Sequence record: MK373782.1
From: Escherichia phage vB_EcoM_KAW3E185
Length of the DNA: 64,000 nucleotides
Strand: one strand, 5' to 3'
The notes beneath the pieces were generated by a model that was not told the origin of the DNA, did not search any database, and worked only from the letters and a program-made list of their open reading frames with translations. This document shows, piece by piece, positions 35,659 through 54,060 of the stretch. The position numbers and the translations under genes are program-made. Each line of letters starts with the position of its first letter. Position 1 is the first letter of the stretch.

Positions 35659-36027
35659 TTATGCAACTTTAATCCAATTGTCTAAATTTAAAACACCTTT
35701 GGCTTTCATTTTTTCGATCAGGTTATCTGCTGTAATGCGTCCATTTTGATACCATGTAACATCTTCAGAGTAACCAGTTTCTTCGTCAACATATGTTTCT
35801 GAACGAATTTTACCGGTAATAATAGTTTTTAATTCATATGTGTCACCTGTGAAAAAGTTTGCTAACACAATTTTCCAAGAGAAATCATCTGAAGGACCTT
35901 CAGGGGTCATACAACCTACGAACTCAAATTGCTCTTTGTATAACATCCACTGGAATTCTTTAATTTCGATAGCTTTATAACCGTCGTGGTCTTTACATTT
36001 GATGTATGAGTTCAGATTGATTTTCAT
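35659..36027 (-). CDS. Hypothetical protein (122 aa)
   Basis: ORF with early-type promoter upstream. Confidence 0.5.
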   Translation of the reverse strand: MKINLNSYIKCKDHDGYKAIEIKEFQWMLYKEQFEFVGCMTPEGPSDDFSWKIVLANFFTGDTYELKTIITGKIRSETYVDEETGYSEDVTWYQNGRITADNLIEKMKAKGVLNLDNWIKVA

Positions 36028-36069: not shown

Positions 36070-36098
36070 ATAGTAACACATCCTACAGGAGAGTAAAC
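36070..36098 (-). promoter_or_regulatory. Early-type promoter (GTTTAC-N17-TACTAT)
   Basis: Upstream of 122-aa ORF. Confidence 0.45.
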
Positions 36099-36135
36099 AT
36101 CTTTTTTAAACTTTTTCTGCCCTAAACGCACAAAA

Positions 36136-36153
36136 GGGAGACCGAAGTCTCCC
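36136..36153 (-). terminator. Terminator hairpin GGGAGAC-UUCG-GUCUCCC after small basic ORF
   Basis: Identical stem to 11652, 53055 and 61379 copies; T-run on minus strand. Confidence 0.6.
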
Positions 36154-36158
36154 TAAAA

Positions 36159-36338
36159 TTATGCAACAACCTTTCCAAAACGAGAAGCATCATCTCGAAG
36201 AACTGCACGTGCTCTGCGCATGATCTTCTCAACTGTTTGATTAATACGAGAGTTCGACCCACGCTTGTATCCAGCGCGTTTAGAGGTACCATCAACTTTC
36301 TTTTCAACTGCTTTCTTTGCTTTAGCTTGTTTTGCCAT
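36159..36338 (-). CDS. Small lysine/arginine-rich protein (59 aa, MAKQAKAKKAVEKK...), not in the supplied ORF track
   Basis: Hand-translated; ends at TAA immediately before a GGGAGAC-CGAA-GTCTCCC terminator; preceded by ~150-nt leader. Confidence 0.4.
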   Translation of the reverse strand: MAKQAKAKKAVEKKVDGTSKRAGYKRGSNSRINQTVEKIMRRARAVLRDDASRFGKVVA

Positions 36339-36494
36339 TATAAATTCTCTTTAAATGAAAATGCAGGACTTATTGACATTGCCTGCGCAAGCCCTCAAGG
36401 GGAACATAGGTTTTGGATATTTAACGACAGGATAACCATAAACCCGTCATCATACCAACCACGACTTAGACAGATAACCTTTTTCTGACGCGTG

Positions 36495-36523
36495 ATAGTA
36501 CAAAATACATTCAAGAGGTAAAC
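36495..36523 (-). promoter_or_regulatory. Early-type promoter (GTTTAC-N17-TACTAT) starting a ~150-nt leader
   Basis: Upstream of the small basic ORF. Confidence 0.4.
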
Positions 36524-36601
36524 CGTAAAACTGCCGGGGACTTAAAACTATAATGATTCGCAAATCATTAATCAGACAGTTCGACGGCTCCTCGATTTAA
36601 C

Positions 36602-36850
36602 TTACTTTAGGGTAATAACAAAATGACGTACTGCTTTACGAGCTGCAGAAGCCAAAGGCTTAGCATATTTCAGTTCATCTTTTGCTTCCAGTTCAGAGGC
36701 CAAAGCTGCCTGGACCGGGTTCAGATGTTTGAAATATCGCAGGATTTCAAGAGCTTCGGCTTCAACATCGATAGATGCGCCATAGTTTTCGTGACCATTA
36801 TTCCATGCGTTACGTTGCAGTTCAAGAGCGTGTTGTAATTGTTTAATCAT
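36602..36850 (-). CDS. rIII: rIII lysis-inhibition accessory protein
   Basis: 82 aa (T4 rIII length), adjacent to gene 31. Confidence 0.75.
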   Translation of the reverse strand: MIKQLQHALELQRNAWNNGHENYGASIDVEAEALEILRYFKHLNPVQAALASELEAKDELKYAKPLASAARKAVRHFVITLK

Positions 36851-36974
36851 TTTAAATTCTCAATTCGAGATAATATTTAGTAGCCACGTTCGACTGAATT
36901 TCACCTTCTTTCGACAGGTCTCTCAGTTGTAGGCTACCGCTTAGAAGAGTGTTCTCTTCATATAGTTATTTATA

Positions 36975-37307
36975 TCACTTATAAAGACACGGAATAGCTT
37001 TATAATGGCATGTTACGAATTTCTGTTTAATTTCTTTAGGTTGTTTAAGTCCCAAAGCCACAAATGGATGTGGAACATTTCGAATTTGTCCAACTGGTAG
37101 TGGAGTCAAATCACCGACTTCAACAAAACCTTCAGGAACATCAGGACCTACAGAATGAACTACACATAGTTCAGGAACTTCACCTTGAACACGTTTACCA
37201 ATCACAAGTCCTGATTCGGTAACTTCTTCATCACCTGCTTGAGCGGGTTCAGAAACCAGAATGACATATTCACCAACAGCACGAATTGGGAGTTGTACTT
37301 CAGACAT
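36975..37307 (-). CDS. 31: Co-chaperonin gp31 (GroES analogue)
   Basis: 110 aa, position next to rIII, middle-type promoter upstream. Confidence 0.85.
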
Positions 37308-53981: not shown

Positions 53982-54050
53982 TATATTTACCTTTATTTAG
54001 ATTATTTAATTTATTTACAGTTGGTTGCTACGACACTTATACCTCGTAGC
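53982..54050 (-). promoter_or_regulatory. Gene 32 translational operator: A/U-rich unstructured leader plus upstream hairpin (pseudoknot region)
   Basis: Hairpin gctacga-N10-tcgtagc at 54027-54050 (-46 to -69 from AUG) followed by ~45 nt almost pure A/T leader. Confidence 0.55.
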
Positions 54051-54060
54051 TGGTATGTTT

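What the first reader, a model, noticed from the sequence alone, without database searches (positions are those of the whole stretch)
36339..36601. 263-nt ORF-free leader between rIII and a 59-aa highly basic ORF that the ORF track missed
In a genome where most genes overlap or are separated by under 60 nt, this stretch has no ORF of meaningful length on the coding (minus) strand. It contains an early-type promoter (GTTTAC-N17-TACTAT, 36495-36523) that would give a ~150-nt 5' leader before a small Lys/Arg-rich ORF (MAKQAKAKKAVEKKVDGTSKRAGYKRGSNSRINQTVEKIMRRARAVLRDDASRFGKVVA), which ends directly at a perfect GGGAGAC-UUCG-GUCUCCC terminator. A long structured leader plus a tiny basic protein could be a regulatory RNA element or a small nucleic-acid-binding protein; I could not assign it to a known family.
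Basis: seen in the sequence. Interest (0 to 1): 0.45.

Follow-up and report, generated by a model that had tools for sequence, protein, structure and literature searches.

The report
Structured RNA leader of gene 30.9
The "empty" 263 bases between phage genes rIII and 30.9 are a strongly conserved, folded stretch of messenger RNA (a long hairpin, a pseudoknot and smaller hairpins) that T4 and its relatives share, that appears in no annotation or RNA family library I could search, and that probably controls how the downstream small basic protein is made.

Summary
Window 36339-36601 (minus strand) has no conserved ORF. It lies between rIII (36602-36850) and a 59-aa basic ORF (36159-36338) that ends at a GGGAGAC-UUCG-GUCUCCC terminator. 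The ORF is not new: it is T4 gene 30.9, a conserved protein of unknown function found only in T4-like phages.

The gap is the interesting part. It is present in 773 phage records. Window versus T4, it is 97% identical, while third codon positions of the flanking genes differ by 19-29%. It is built from RNA modules on the mRNA strand:
- Block A, a 24-bp hairpin: 99% of cells paired, 5 compensatory pairs.
- M1, an H-type pseudoknot, in every locus where rIII directly precedes 30.9. Both stems covary across lineages, but the second stem is weak in this phage.
- Hairpins M6, M3a and M3b, with weak covariation support.

Related phages shuffle these modules. Some carry a 137-nt kissing-loop RNA (M2) at the M6 position. 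Another module (M7) sits in this window's gp31-rIII gap.

Rfam 15 and the papers searched describe none of this.

Most likely it is a structured intercistronic leader acting after transcription. The function is inferred, not shown.

The parts
36602..36850 (-). rIII (lysis-inhibition accessory protein), the upstream cistron. No terminator separates it from the leader.
   Evidence: ORF list. phrog_1457 at E 3.8e-43. Annotations in relatives.
36515..36593 (-). Block A: a long irregular hairpin made of P1 GAGG/CCUC, P2 GCCGU/ACGGU, P3 AACUGUC/GGCAGUU and P4 UAAUGAUU-UGCG-AAUCAUUA. It occurs in the T4, Mosigvirus and related lineages. It is missing from some close relatives (L007, L067).
   Evidence: 24 pairs, 99.2% of 384 cells paired. 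Five pairs show changes on both sides; 1 of 500 shuffles reaches this. Slid controls pair 22-60% (alignment A4). 31 G-U cells against 3 unpaired cells place the fold on the mRNA strand. RNAalifold recovers the same helices.
36495..36523 (-). T4-early-type promoter-like motif GTTTAC-N17-TACTAT. The -35 lies in an internal loop of Block A and the -10 at the Block A/M6 junction. It is specific to this lineage.
   Evidence: Sequence. It fits the PST/T4 PeSL promoter consensus TTTACW...TAYWAT except for the last -35 base (PMC4122927). GTTTAC occurs only in the window among 17 Block A variants. T4 has no -10. The strict motif occurs in 2 of 59 distinct gaps.
36460..36494 (-). M6: hairpin CACG...CGUG enclosing CAGA-AAAAGGUUA-UCUG. 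It is an exchangeable cassette. T4 has nothing at this site and G3F8-type phages carry the 137-nt M2 RNA there.
   Evidence: Alignment with T4, G3F8 and PhAPEC2. Related copies in L007, L009 and L028 change the inner stem from CAGA/UCUG to CAGC/GCUG. Only one compensatory pair, so support is weak.
36405..36448 (-). M1: H-type pseudoknot, the near-universal core of the gap. S1 is GACGGG (36443-36448) with CCUGUC (36426-36431). S2 is UAUGG (36436-36440) with CUAUG (36405-36409). Loop 3 is the conserved GUUAAAUAUCCAAAAC.
   Evidence: Covariance model R1 scores 67.6 bits (E 1e-12) at 36400-36453. That is the only hit below E 0.1 in the window with default filters. An unfiltered scan of 30000-64000 gives 13.1 bits (E 0.28) as the next best. 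There is one hit per related locus and none below E 0.6 in 27 decoy loci. S1 pair types are UA18/AU14/GC1 and CG21/GC8/UA4, with no unpaired cells at these two pairs. S2 shows 7/7 contiguous pairs in six distinct sequence versions. Mean contiguous run is 4.43 against 2.91 +/- 0.27 for permuted partners; 0 of 20000 permutations reach it. In this window S2 is only 5 bp, two of them G-U.
36388..36405 (-). M3a: small hairpin GUU-CCC-CUUGA-GGG-CUUG with conserved flanks. In other phages it sits before M1 or directly after the rIII stop codon.
   Evidence: Found in most distinct gaps examined. The stem changes to CCUC/GAGG in L019 and GCC/GGC in L046. Within the window's lineage the stem does not vary.
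36363..36386 (-). M3b: hairpin GCAGG-CAAUGUCAAUAAGU-CCUGC, the last hairpin before the ribosome-binding site.
   Evidence: L025 and L030 carry the same loop on a different stem, AACUGG/CCAGUU. One pair reads AU6/UA2/GU1 and the helix is 100% paired. Other lineages have an unrelated GC-rich hairpin at this position. The loop (UGUCA, UGCCA in T4) could also pair with the start region UGGCA; this last point is inference only.
36339..36361 (-). Translation initiation region of 30.9. The Shine-Dalgarno GAGAA may pair weakly with UUUUC (36345-36361). Other lineages have UCUCC-N5-GGAAGA or CCUC-N4-GAGG here.
   Evidence: Sequences. Mean pairing probability of positions -14..-5 is 0.40-0.79 in 14 leaders and 0.63 in the window. 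There was no control set, so this is suggestive only.
36159..36338 (-). Gene 30.9: a 59-aa basic protein with the invariant core SKRAGYKR-x-(S/T/K)N-x-R and a C-terminal helix. Function unknown.
   Evidence: phrog_1427 at E 2.4e-31. PhAPEC2 and T4 annotations. 116 homologues; every named one comes from a T4-like phage of enterobacteria. The MAKQ start is conserved, whereas T4's old 72-aa extension is out of frame here. No Pfam or PDB relative. AlphaFold2 gives pLDDT 68.7, with a helix at 34-52.
36132..36153 (-). Intrinsic terminator GGGAGAC-UUCG-GUCUCCC-UUUU, ending the rIII-30.9 transcription unit.
   Evidence: Sequence. Annotated as a terminator in G2469 (-16.3) and PhAPEC2 (ARNold). T4 has a compensated version, GGACUCC-UUCG-GGAGUCC. 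The simple scan missed it.
36070..36098 (-). Early promoter GTTTAC-N17-TACTAT of gene 30.8. Together with the terminator above it forms a PeSL-type terminator-promoter cassette.
   Evidence: Sequence. PeSL definition and consensus from PMC2839356 and PMC4122927.
36879..36938 (-). M7: a three-tier hairpin in the neighbouring gp31-rIII gap. It belongs to the same module pool: in other phages it lies in the 30.9 leader.
   Evidence: nhmmer hits from 17 foreign 30.9 leaders, E down to 3.5e-7. 16 pairs, 8 with compensatory changes, none broken.

Best explanation
The 263 nt are the structured intercistronic leader of T4-type gene 30.9.

How it is made. Transcription entering from rIII reads through, because no terminator lies between the two genes, and stops at the hairpin just after 30.9. 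On that mRNA the gap folds into independent modules:
- a long irregular hairpin (Block A);
- a small hairpin (M6);
- an H-type pseudoknot (M1);
- two further hairpins (M3a, M3b);
- a weakly occluded ribosome-binding site.

What constrains it. Selection acts on the RNA fold. The segment is more conserved than neighbouring synonymous sites, and stem changes are compensated.

Proposed function (inferred). The modules act in cis, after transcription. They would insulate the 30.9 cistron from rIII, act as barriers to or processing points for host and phage RNases, and set ribosome access to a weak Shine-Dalgarno. This would give 30.9 its own expression level and timing on a shared transcript. The conserved loops with covarying stems suggest that at least M1 is also read by a protein.

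Shown versus inferred. Shown: the gap is real, it is under RNA-level constraint, the fold is on the mRNA strand, it is modular, and it tracks rIII-30.9 adjacency. Inferred: the cis-regulatory role and any binding partner.

The confidence of 0.5 is for the whole statement including the cis role. For 'a selected RNA structure' alone I would say about 0.9.
For: 1. Conservation beyond neutrality. Window versus T4: 97.2% identity over 212 aligned gap columns, against third-codon-position divergence of 29% in rIII and 19% in 30.9. Window versus L035: 94.3%, against 26-42%. 773 phage records hold the gap, once each.
2. RNA structure.
- Block A: 24 bp, 99.2% paired, 5 compensatory pairs, slid controls 22-60%.
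- M1 S1 has three pair types at each of two positions with no unpaired cells there.
- M1 S2 beats 20000 partner permutations.
- 31 G-U cells against 3 unpaired cells in Block A put the fold on the sense strand.
3. Not coding: no conserved ORF, and frame-breaking 1-nt indels.
4. Co-transcription. None of the 59 distinct gaps has a late or MotA promoter motif, and none has a run of five T outside the ribosome-binding region. A terminator follows 30.9. T4 rIII is transcribed from early, middle and late promoters (PMC9409239). T4 30.9 RNA is classed as early (PMC9697503 supplement).
5. Link to gene arrangement. M1 is found in every locus tested where rIII directly precedes 30.9, including distant ones (L115, L116, L119). 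It is absent from the four loci where the 30.9 homologue has its own promoter or other neighbours (L045, L111, L117, L118).
6. Shared leader grammar. The rIII leader in the same window and in all relatives also consists of covarying hairpins followed by an anti-SD/SD hairpin (CCUC-N4-GAGG). Module M7 swaps between the two leaders.
Against: - No experiment or transcript map was available, so processing, stability and translation effects are all untested.
- Single-sequence folding is unremarkable (z = -1.49).
- In the window's own lineage the pseudoknot's second stem is only 5 bp with two G-U pairs. Some close variants weaken it further (L010, L025, L038).
- M3a, M3b and M6 have little covariation.
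- Module order and the distance from M1 to the start codon vary from about 70 to 300 nt. This argues against a classical aptamer-plus-expression-platform device and fits autonomous, possibly trans-acting RNAs equally well.
- Block A is missing from some very close relatives (L007, L067), so it is dispensable.
- The sequences are phylogenetically related, so the shuffle statistics overstate independence.
- The link to rIII-30.9 adjacency rests on only four negative loci, all phylogenetically distant.
Confidence: 0.5

Rival explanations
1. Protein-binding operator. M1 alone, or M1 with the other conserved loops, is the binding site of a specific protein that represses or activates 30.9 translation. 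The most economical version is autoregulation by the basic gp30.9 itself, as gp32 does at the gene 32 pseudoknot. Other candidates are gp32, ribosomal protein S1, or the RIII-S1 complex.
For: - M1 has invariant loop nucleotides with freely covarying stems, the usual signature of a recognised motif.
- gp30.9 is small and very basic, with an invariant SKRAGYKR motif.
- T-even phages already use a leader pseudoknot for autogenous control of gene 32 (PMC3014915).
- RIII, encoded immediately upstream, binds S1 (PMC9409239).
Against: - Nothing shows that gp30.9 binds RNA. It has no Pfam or PDB relative, and the model is one helix plus a disordered tail.
- M1 lies at a variable distance from the ribosome-binding site, and structured GC-rich hairpins separate the two. 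The gene 32 operator instead has an unstructured A+U-rich tract.
- gp30.9 sequence types differ between lineages while M1 stays the same.
Confidence: 0.2
2. Autonomous non-coding RNAs. The modules are independent functional RNAs: ligand sensors, ribozymes, or decoys and sponges for host factors or defence proteins. They merely reside in, and are released from, the rIII-30.9 transcript. The gap is a landing pad where such RNAs are exchanged between phages.
For: - Modules shuffle in order and number, and move between the rIII and 30.9 leaders.
- M2, a 137-nt RNA with 7 helices including a kissing loop, occupies the M6 site in relatives. It is present or absent between near-identical phages: T4 versus G3F8, L115 versus L116.
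- M1 has the topology and A-rich third loop typical of small ligand-binding pseudoknots.
- No host counterpart exists.
Against: - No module has its own conserved promoter or terminator.
- Each module is single-copy and confined to this locus.
- A hairpin and an occluded Shine-Dalgarno always abut the start codon, which points to cis action.
- No Rfam riboswitch or ribozyme model matches.
Confidence: 0.2
3. An early promoter at 36495-36523 starts a separate transcript, so the functional unit is a ~150-nt 5' leader of a monocistronic 30.9 mRNA.
For: - GTTTAC-N17-TACTAT uses the same hexamers and spacing as the promoter upstream of 30.8 in this window.
- It fits the T4-type PeSL promoter consensus.
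- Relatives that carry M6 have the one-mismatch version, GTGTAC.
- A start there would put the M6 hairpin at the extreme 5' end of the transcript.
Against: - GTTTAC is unique to this genome among 17 Block A variants.
- T4 and most lineages have no -10 at all, yet they keep the structured gap.
- Block A, which lies upstream of this start, is itself under RNA-level constraint.
Confidence: 0.1
4. A DNA-level or non-functional explanation. Either the conservation reflects recent recombination that spread one version of the segment, or the segment is a DNA element such as a recombination hotspot or an origin. The hairpins would then be incidental.
For: T-even genomes are mosaic and the locus clearly recombines at module boundaries. 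Very high identity between genera could partly be recent exchange.
Against: - Compensatory changes keep helices intact across lineages.
- G-U pairs are tolerated on one strand only.
- The same excess conservation is seen against two different genera.
Confidence: 0.05
5. The gap encodes one or more unannotated small proteins, or an N-terminal extension of gp30.9 as in the old 72-aa and 97-aa T4 annotations.
For: Automatic annotations place 36-60-aa ORFs here in some genomes (G3F8). T4 record M37882 starts 30.9 42 nt further upstream.
Against: - The T4 extension is out of frame in the window because of a 1-nt indel.
- The only start shared by all homologues is MAKQ/MSK.
- The longest ORFs differ in frame, strand and length between close relatives and mostly use TTG or GTG starts.
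Confidence: 0.02

Closest known systems
Autoregulatory pseudoknot operator of T4/T2/RB69 gene 32 mRNA
   Same: An H-type pseudoknot in the 5' leader of a T-even phage gene that encodes a nucleic-acid-binding-like protein, conserved among T-even phages. A UUAAA motif follows stem 1 (for the gene 32 description; for M1).
   Different: - The sequences are unrelated. Model R1 does not hit the gene 32 leader of this same window at 53982-54060.
- In gene 32 the pseudoknot lies 67 nt upstream of the start codon and is followed by an unstructured A+U-rich tract up to the ribosome-binding site.
- Here the distance varies from about 70 to 300 nt, and the intervening RNA is made of GC-rich hairpins.
- Protein binding is untested.
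preQ1-I riboswitch aptamer (Rfam RF00522) and other small ligand-binding H-type pseudoknots
   Same: Compact pseudoknot. A 2-nt first loop with invariant U residues. A long A-rich third loop (GUUAAAUAUCCAAAAC) followed by the 3' strand of stem 2.
   Different: - No Rfam hit, even at E <= 10.
- The stems are longer.
- The 3' strand of stem 2 does not overlap a Shine-Dalgarno.
- No queuosine-related genes lie nearby.
- The resemblance is one of topology only, recalled from general knowledge.
PeSL (promoter-early stem-loop) cassettes of T4-like phages (PMC2839356, PMC4122927)
   Same: Small regulatory cassettes that drive modular shuffling in T4-type genomes. The terminator at 36132-36153 and the promoter at 36070-36098 downstream of 30.9 fit the PeSL definition.
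   Different: PeSLs are multi-copy terminator-plus-promoter DNA motifs that flank variable ORFs. The modules described here are single-copy, lie inside one transcription unit, lack terminators and conserved promoters, and show RNA-level covariation including pseudoknots.
Inhibitory hairpins at T4 translation initiation regions (genes e, soc, 49, I-TevI)
   Same: The Shine-Dalgarno or AUG is sequestered in a local helix (PMC3014915). The rIII leader here has a clear CCUC/GAGG-type hairpin, and the 30.9 leader a weaker one.
   Different: In those cases a single hairpin is bypassed by a late promoter located inside it. Here there are 120-416 nt of additional conserved structure upstream, and no such internal promoter.
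RNase III processing hairpins between phage T7 early genes
   Same: Long irregular intercistronic hairpins with internal loops on a polycistronic phage mRNA. Block A has 24 bp in four tiers.
   Different: There is no evidence of cleavage, no sequence similarity was tested, and T4 is not known to depend on RNase III. This comparison rests on my general knowledge only.

Membership tests
T4 gp30.9 protein family (phrog_1427) | Significant profile match over the full length | tested here: met
   phrog_1427 at E 2.4e-31, residues 1-57. 93% identity to T4 gp30.9 over the tblastn-aligned residues 17-60.
T4 gp30.9 protein family (phrog_1427) | Position between rIII and 30.8 on the same strand | tested here: met
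   gp31-rIII-30.9 in all 61 related loci that carry both genes. 30.8 follows in most of them.
Any Rfam 15 RNA family | Covariance-model match at or near the gathering score | tested here: not met
   No hit inside 36339-36601 at E <= 10. No hit in the gaps of 20 related loci at E <= 1.
Gene 32-type autoregulatory pseudoknot operator | H-type pseudoknot in the leader | tested here: met
   S1 and S2 covary. The topology is 5'S1-5'S2-3'S1-3'S2.
Gene 32-type autoregulatory pseudoknot operator | Unstructured A+U-rich tract with UUAA(A) repeats running from the pseudoknot to the ribosome-binding site | tested here: not met
   GC-rich hairpins M3a and M3b lie between M1 and the start codon. Compare the gene 32 leader in the same window.
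Gene 32-type autoregulatory pseudoknot operator | Sequence or profile similarity to the gene 32 pseudoknot | tested here: not met
   R1 scores only 7.7 bits, on the AU-rich tract of the gene 32 leader.
Gene 32-type autoregulatory pseudoknot operator | Bound by the protein encoded downstream | not testable with these tools
   Needs a gel shift or footprint of gp30.9 on M1 RNA.
preQ1-I riboswitch | Match to RF00522 | tested here: not met
   No hit at E <= 10.
preQ1-I riboswitch | 3' strand of stem 2 overlaps the Shine-Dalgarno, or a terminator follows | tested here: not met
   S2 3' strand is CUAUG at 36405-36409, about 65 nt from the start codon. There is no terminator in the gap.
PeSL cassette | Stem-loop terminator immediately followed by an early promoter (TTTACW-N17-TAYWAT) | tested here: met
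   This applies to 36070-36153, downstream of 30.9, not to the gap itself.
PeSL cassette | The same feature applied to the modules inside 36339-36601 | tested here: not met
   No terminator in the gap. The promoter motif is unique to this genome. The modules are single-copy.
T4 early promoter | Hexamers and spacing of the T4-type consensus | tested here: met
   GTTTAC-N17-TACTAT at 36495-36523, identical in hexamers and spacing to the 30.8 promoter.
T4 early promoter | Conserved in related phages, as expected of a functional promoter | tested here: not met
   The other 16 Block A variants have GTGTAC. T4 lacks the -10. The strict motif occurs in 2 of 59 gaps.

The most novel reading that the evidence does not exclude
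The gaps on both sides of rIII in T4 and its relatives form a cassette site for a previously unrecognised set of autonomous phage non-coding RNAs: pseudoknot M1, the 137-nt kissing-loop RNA M2, the three-tier hairpin M7, and others. On this reading at least one of them works as more than a passive mRNA leader, for example as a ligand sensor, a ribozyme, or a decoy for a host or defence factor. That would give T4 the riboswitch or small regulatory RNA that the 2010 review said had not been functionally characterised from it.
Probability: 0.2. Interest if true: 0.85.

Novelty: new member of a known kind. Interest (0 to 1): 0.6.

Why it matters
T4 is the most thoroughly studied phage. [quoted passage not shown]

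Here a 244-263-nt segment, present in T4 itself at 130541-130784, shows clear RNA-level selection. It contains a covariation-supported pseudoknot and a long hairpin. In sister phages it also carries a 137-nt multi-helix RNA with a kissing loop. None of these is annotated in the records examined or listed in Rfam 15.

Why that is useful:
- It gives concrete, mutable targets for asking how T-even phages tune expression of the many small early genes of unknown function.
- It allows a test of whether gp30.9 is an RNA-binding autoregulator.
- It allows a test of whether structured RNAs are exchanged between phages as cassettes, as promoter-terminator PeSLs are.

It also shows that ORF-free gaps in compact phage genomes can be triaged by comparing their conservation with neighbouring synonymous sites.

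Tried and rejected
- Rfam scans of the window region and of 20 related loci found nothing relevant.
- Single-sequence folding of the leader gave z = -1.49, which is uninformative.
- Coding potential is rejected: no conserved ORF, frame-breaking indels, and the 10-aa AUGAUG mini-ORF over M1 is not conserved in frame.
- A conserved internal promoter is rejected. The generic promoter and terminator scan was uninformative.
- Mimicry of a host sequence is rejected: no match in 5,426 E. coli genomes. The M2 signature is absent from 185,579 bacterial and archaeal genomes.
- M1 or M2 as multi-copy mobile elements is rejected: one copy per genome.
- My pattern scan for M1 in viral contigs was mis-specified, because the gap range excluded the window type. 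Beyond two T-even contigs it returned only matches that R1 later scored as non-hits. I re-used those 27 loci as decoys for model R1.
- The covariance-model alignment did not repair the one-base register differences in stem 2. I therefore tested S2 with a register-tolerant permutation test instead.
- gp30.9 has no Pfam or PDB relative. The AlphaFold2 model is too poor and too simple, a single helix, for a fold search to mean anything, so none was run.
- P0110 sits in a bacterial gene context (L113, L114) and looks unrelated. P0111 and P0102 (L117, L118) are not next to rIII and lack M1, so I used them as negative loci.
- Literature searches found no description of this RNA. One untraceable 2003 paper on rIII and 30.9 expression (Driukas & Nivinskas, Biologija) is cited in PMC9409239 and may hold relevant transcript data.
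Full report
**What is there**

The window is a Mosigvirus (RB69-like T-even phage). An 801-nt segment around the finding is 99.8% identical to phage vB_EcoM_G2469 and matches 767 phage records. On the minus strand the order is as follows:
- gp31, 36975-37307
- rIII, 36602-36850
- a 263-nt gap, 36339-36601
- a 59-aa basic ORF, 36159-36338
- a GGGAGAC-UUCG-GUCUCCC-UUUU hairpin, 36132-36153
- an early promoter, 36070-36098
- gene 30.8, 35659-36027

**The ORF is known**

It is T4 gene 30.9.
- PhAPEC2's depositors call it similar to T4 gp30.9.
- It matches phrog_1427 at E 2.4e-31, a family of unknown function.
- The T4 record places 30.9 at 130364..130540 and rIII at 130785..131033, with 244 unannotated bases between them.

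The start shared by all homologues is MAKQ/MSK. The older 72-aa T4 reading is thrown out of frame in this window by a 1-nt indel.

Every named homologue comes from a T4-like phage of enterobacteria. The family has no Pfam or PDB relative. AlphaFold2 gives only a disordered basic N-terminus, carrying the invariant SKRAGYKR motif, and one helix. T4 omics data class its RNA as early and give no protein class. A 2003 paper on rIII and 30.9 expression exists, but I could not read it.

**The gap is conserved more than its neighbours**

Used alone as a query, it finds 773 phage records, one place each.

| Comparison | Gap identity | Third-codon-position divergence of flanking genes |
|---|---|---|
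| Window vs T4 | 97.2% over 212 aligned columns | rIII 29%, 30.9 19% |
| Window vs L035 (another lineage) | 94.3% | 26-42% |

It is not coding. The longest ORF changes frame, strand and size between close relatives, and single-base indels sit inside near-identical blocks.

**It is a mosaic of RNA modules**

I aligned 61 related loci that carry both genes. In this window the order is Block A, M6, M1, M3a, M3b, then the ribosome-binding site.

Block A (36515-36593) is a four-tier hairpin of 24 bp.
- 99.2% of 384 cells are paired.
- Five pairs carry changes on both sides; 1 of 500 shuffles reaches this.
- Slid controls pair only 22-60%.
- 31 G-U cells against 3 unpaired cells place the fold on the mRNA strand.

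M1 (36405-36448) is an H-type pseudoknot.
- Stem 1 reads UA18/AU14/GC1 and CG21/GC8/UA4 at two positions, with no unpaired cell at either.
- Stem 2 forms 7 of 7 contiguous pairs in six different sequence versions.
- Stem 2 also beats 20000 partner permutations: mean run 4.43 against 2.91 +/- 0.27.
- A covariance model finds M1 once in the window at 67.6 bits, once in each related locus, and never in 27 decoy loci.
- In this phage stem 2 is only UAUGG/CUAUG, two of its pairs G-U, so the pseudoknot is weaker here than in several relatives.

M6, M3a and M3b are hairpins with only slight covariation inside this lineage. Unrelated GC-rich hairpins occupy the same position in other lineages.

**Context that bears on function**

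- No gap has a terminator, a late promoter or a MotA-type promoter. T4 rIII is transcribed from early, middle and late promoters. The gap is therefore read through from rIII in all lineages.
The other 16 Block A variants have GTGTAC, and T4 lacks the -10.
- M1 is present in every tested locus where rIII directly precedes 30.9, including distant ones (L115, L116, L119). It is absent from the four loci where the 30.9 homologue has its own promoter or other neighbours.
- The neighbouring gp31-rIII gap follows the same grammar. Covarying hairpins are followed by an anti-SD/SD hairpin. In this window that gap contains module M7 (36879-36938), which in other phages lies in the 30.9 leader. M7 has 16 pairs, 8 of them compensated and none broken.
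- Modules change order, number and host leader between phages. At the M6 site some relatives carry M2, a 137-nt RNA with 41 pairs in 7 helices, including a 6-bp kissing loop. It is 98% paired with 21 compensated pairs, and 0 of 500 shuffles reach that. M2 is present or absent between near-identical phages.

**Interpretation**

The best-supported reading is a structured intercistronic leader under RNA-level selection that acts in cis on the rIII-30.9 transcript. It could work through insulation, RNase barriers or processing, and control of ribosome access to a weak Shine-Dalgarno. M1 is probably read by a protein as well.

I put about 0.9 on the statement that this is a selected RNA structure. 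I put about 0.5 on a cis post-transcriptional role.

Rivals are:
- a specific protein operator, for example autoregulation by gp30.9;
- autonomous or trans-acting RNAs;
- DNA-level or hitch-hiking conservation;
- hidden coding.

The variable distance and order of the modules is the main argument against a classical riboswitch-like device. It keeps the autonomous-RNA reading alive.

**Comparison with what is known**

- The nearest analogue is the gene 32 pseudoknot operator. The topology and setting agree. The A+U-rich tract, the sequence and the fixed spacing do not, and model R1 ignores the gene 32 leader of this same window.
- The resemblance to preQ1-I is topological only, with no Rfam hit.
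- PeSL cassettes describe the terminator-promoter pair downstream of 30.9, not the modules.
- No E. coli sequence resembles the gap, and the M2 signature is absent from 185,579 bacterial and archaeal genomes.
- The 2010 T4 review says no riboswitch or trans-acting small RNA has been functionally characterised from T4. My literature searches found no description of this RNA.

**Verdict**

The ORF is a known gene of unknown function. The promoter idea is specific to this lineage. The 'leader' is a real, previously undescribed, conserved structured RNA region, present in T4 itself. It is a new family within a known kind, structured mRNA leaders. There is a modest chance that it, or its sister modules, is something more unusual.

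Noticed in passing
window 36851-36974 (minus strand): M7 at 36879-36938, SD hairpin at 36856-36871, hairpin GAAGAG..CUCUUC at 36944-36959, TATAAATA at 36967-36974: The 124-nt gp31-rIII gap is also a structured leader. It holds a late promoter, a small hairpin, the three-tier hairpin M7 (16 pairs, 8 compensated, conserved loops UACAAC / GAAA / GAACGUG), and an anti-SD/SD hairpin. In other phages M7 sits in the 30.9 leader instead. All relatives keep a CCUC-N4-GAGG or UCUC-N5-GAGA hairpin over the rIII Shine-Dalgarno.
   Followed up: partly
L006 905-1041 (phage vB_EcoM-G3F8, a Tequatrovirus); L012 1251-1387; L115 2184-2320; absent from the window: M2 is a ~137-nt RNA inserted in the rIII-30.9 gap of many T4-like phages. 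It has 41 pairs in 7 helices, including a 6-bp loop-loop kissing helix and a GAAA-capped hairpin. It is 98% paired with 21 compensated pairs. It has no Rfam match. It is single-copy per genome and present or absent between near-identical phages. Its signature is absent from bacterial genomes. It is a strong candidate for a new complex-folded phage RNA.
   Followed up: partly
related loci, e.g. L012 1135-1170 (M4), L012 1225-1250 (M5), L004 1352-1385 (T4, M5-like): Further small modules have conserved loops and covarying stems. M4 is a hairpin with loop UGUACG (stems CCAUG/CAUGG, CUCUG/CAGAG, CUUUG/CAAAG). M5 is a hairpin with loop UACYWWAGU (stems CGC/GCG, UGC/GCA, AGC/GCU). Their position within the gap differs between phages. 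I judged these by eye only.
   Followed up: no
window 36521 (the middle T of GTTTAC at 36518-36523): A single G-to-T difference from every other Block A variant, including the 99.6%-identical G2469, creates the perfect T4-type -35 hexamer. It lies in an internal loop of Block A, so it does not disturb the fold.
   Followed up: yes
window 36363-36386 versus 36330-36345: The apical loop of M3b (UGUCA; UGCCA in T4) is complementary to the 30.9 start region (A)UGGCA. Adjacent AUAAGU could pair with AUUUAU. MFE folds of the initiation region use this pairing instead of the M3b stem in the window and in T4. This could be an alternative start-codon-sequestering conformation, or it could be chance.
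   Followed up: partly
window 53982-54060 (minus strand): The gene 32 leader of this phage carries the RB69-type autoregulatory pseudoknot (ACCAGCUACGAGGUAUAAGUGUCGUAGC). UAAAU/UUAAA repeats follow it up to the start codon. I used it as a comparison for M1.
   Followed up: partly
T4 records: L004 (M37882) 1554-1772; UniProt-derived name (P0031, 97 aa): Older T4 annotations give gp30.9 as 72 aa or as an '11.1 kDa' 97-aa protein. These N-terminal extensions run into the conserved RNA modules and are not conserved in frame. The 58-aa reading in AF158101 is the one that comparison supports. Several recent phage genomes still propagate the long form or the spurious label '1,4-alpha-glucan branching enzyme'.
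   Followed up: yes
L111 1814-2503 (metagenomic T4-like phage): In a distant relative, rIII has its own terminator. A 161-aa ORF of unknown function is inserted, and the 88-aa 30.9 homologue has its own GTTTAC-N17-TATAAT promoter. None of the RNA modules is present there.
   Followed up: partly
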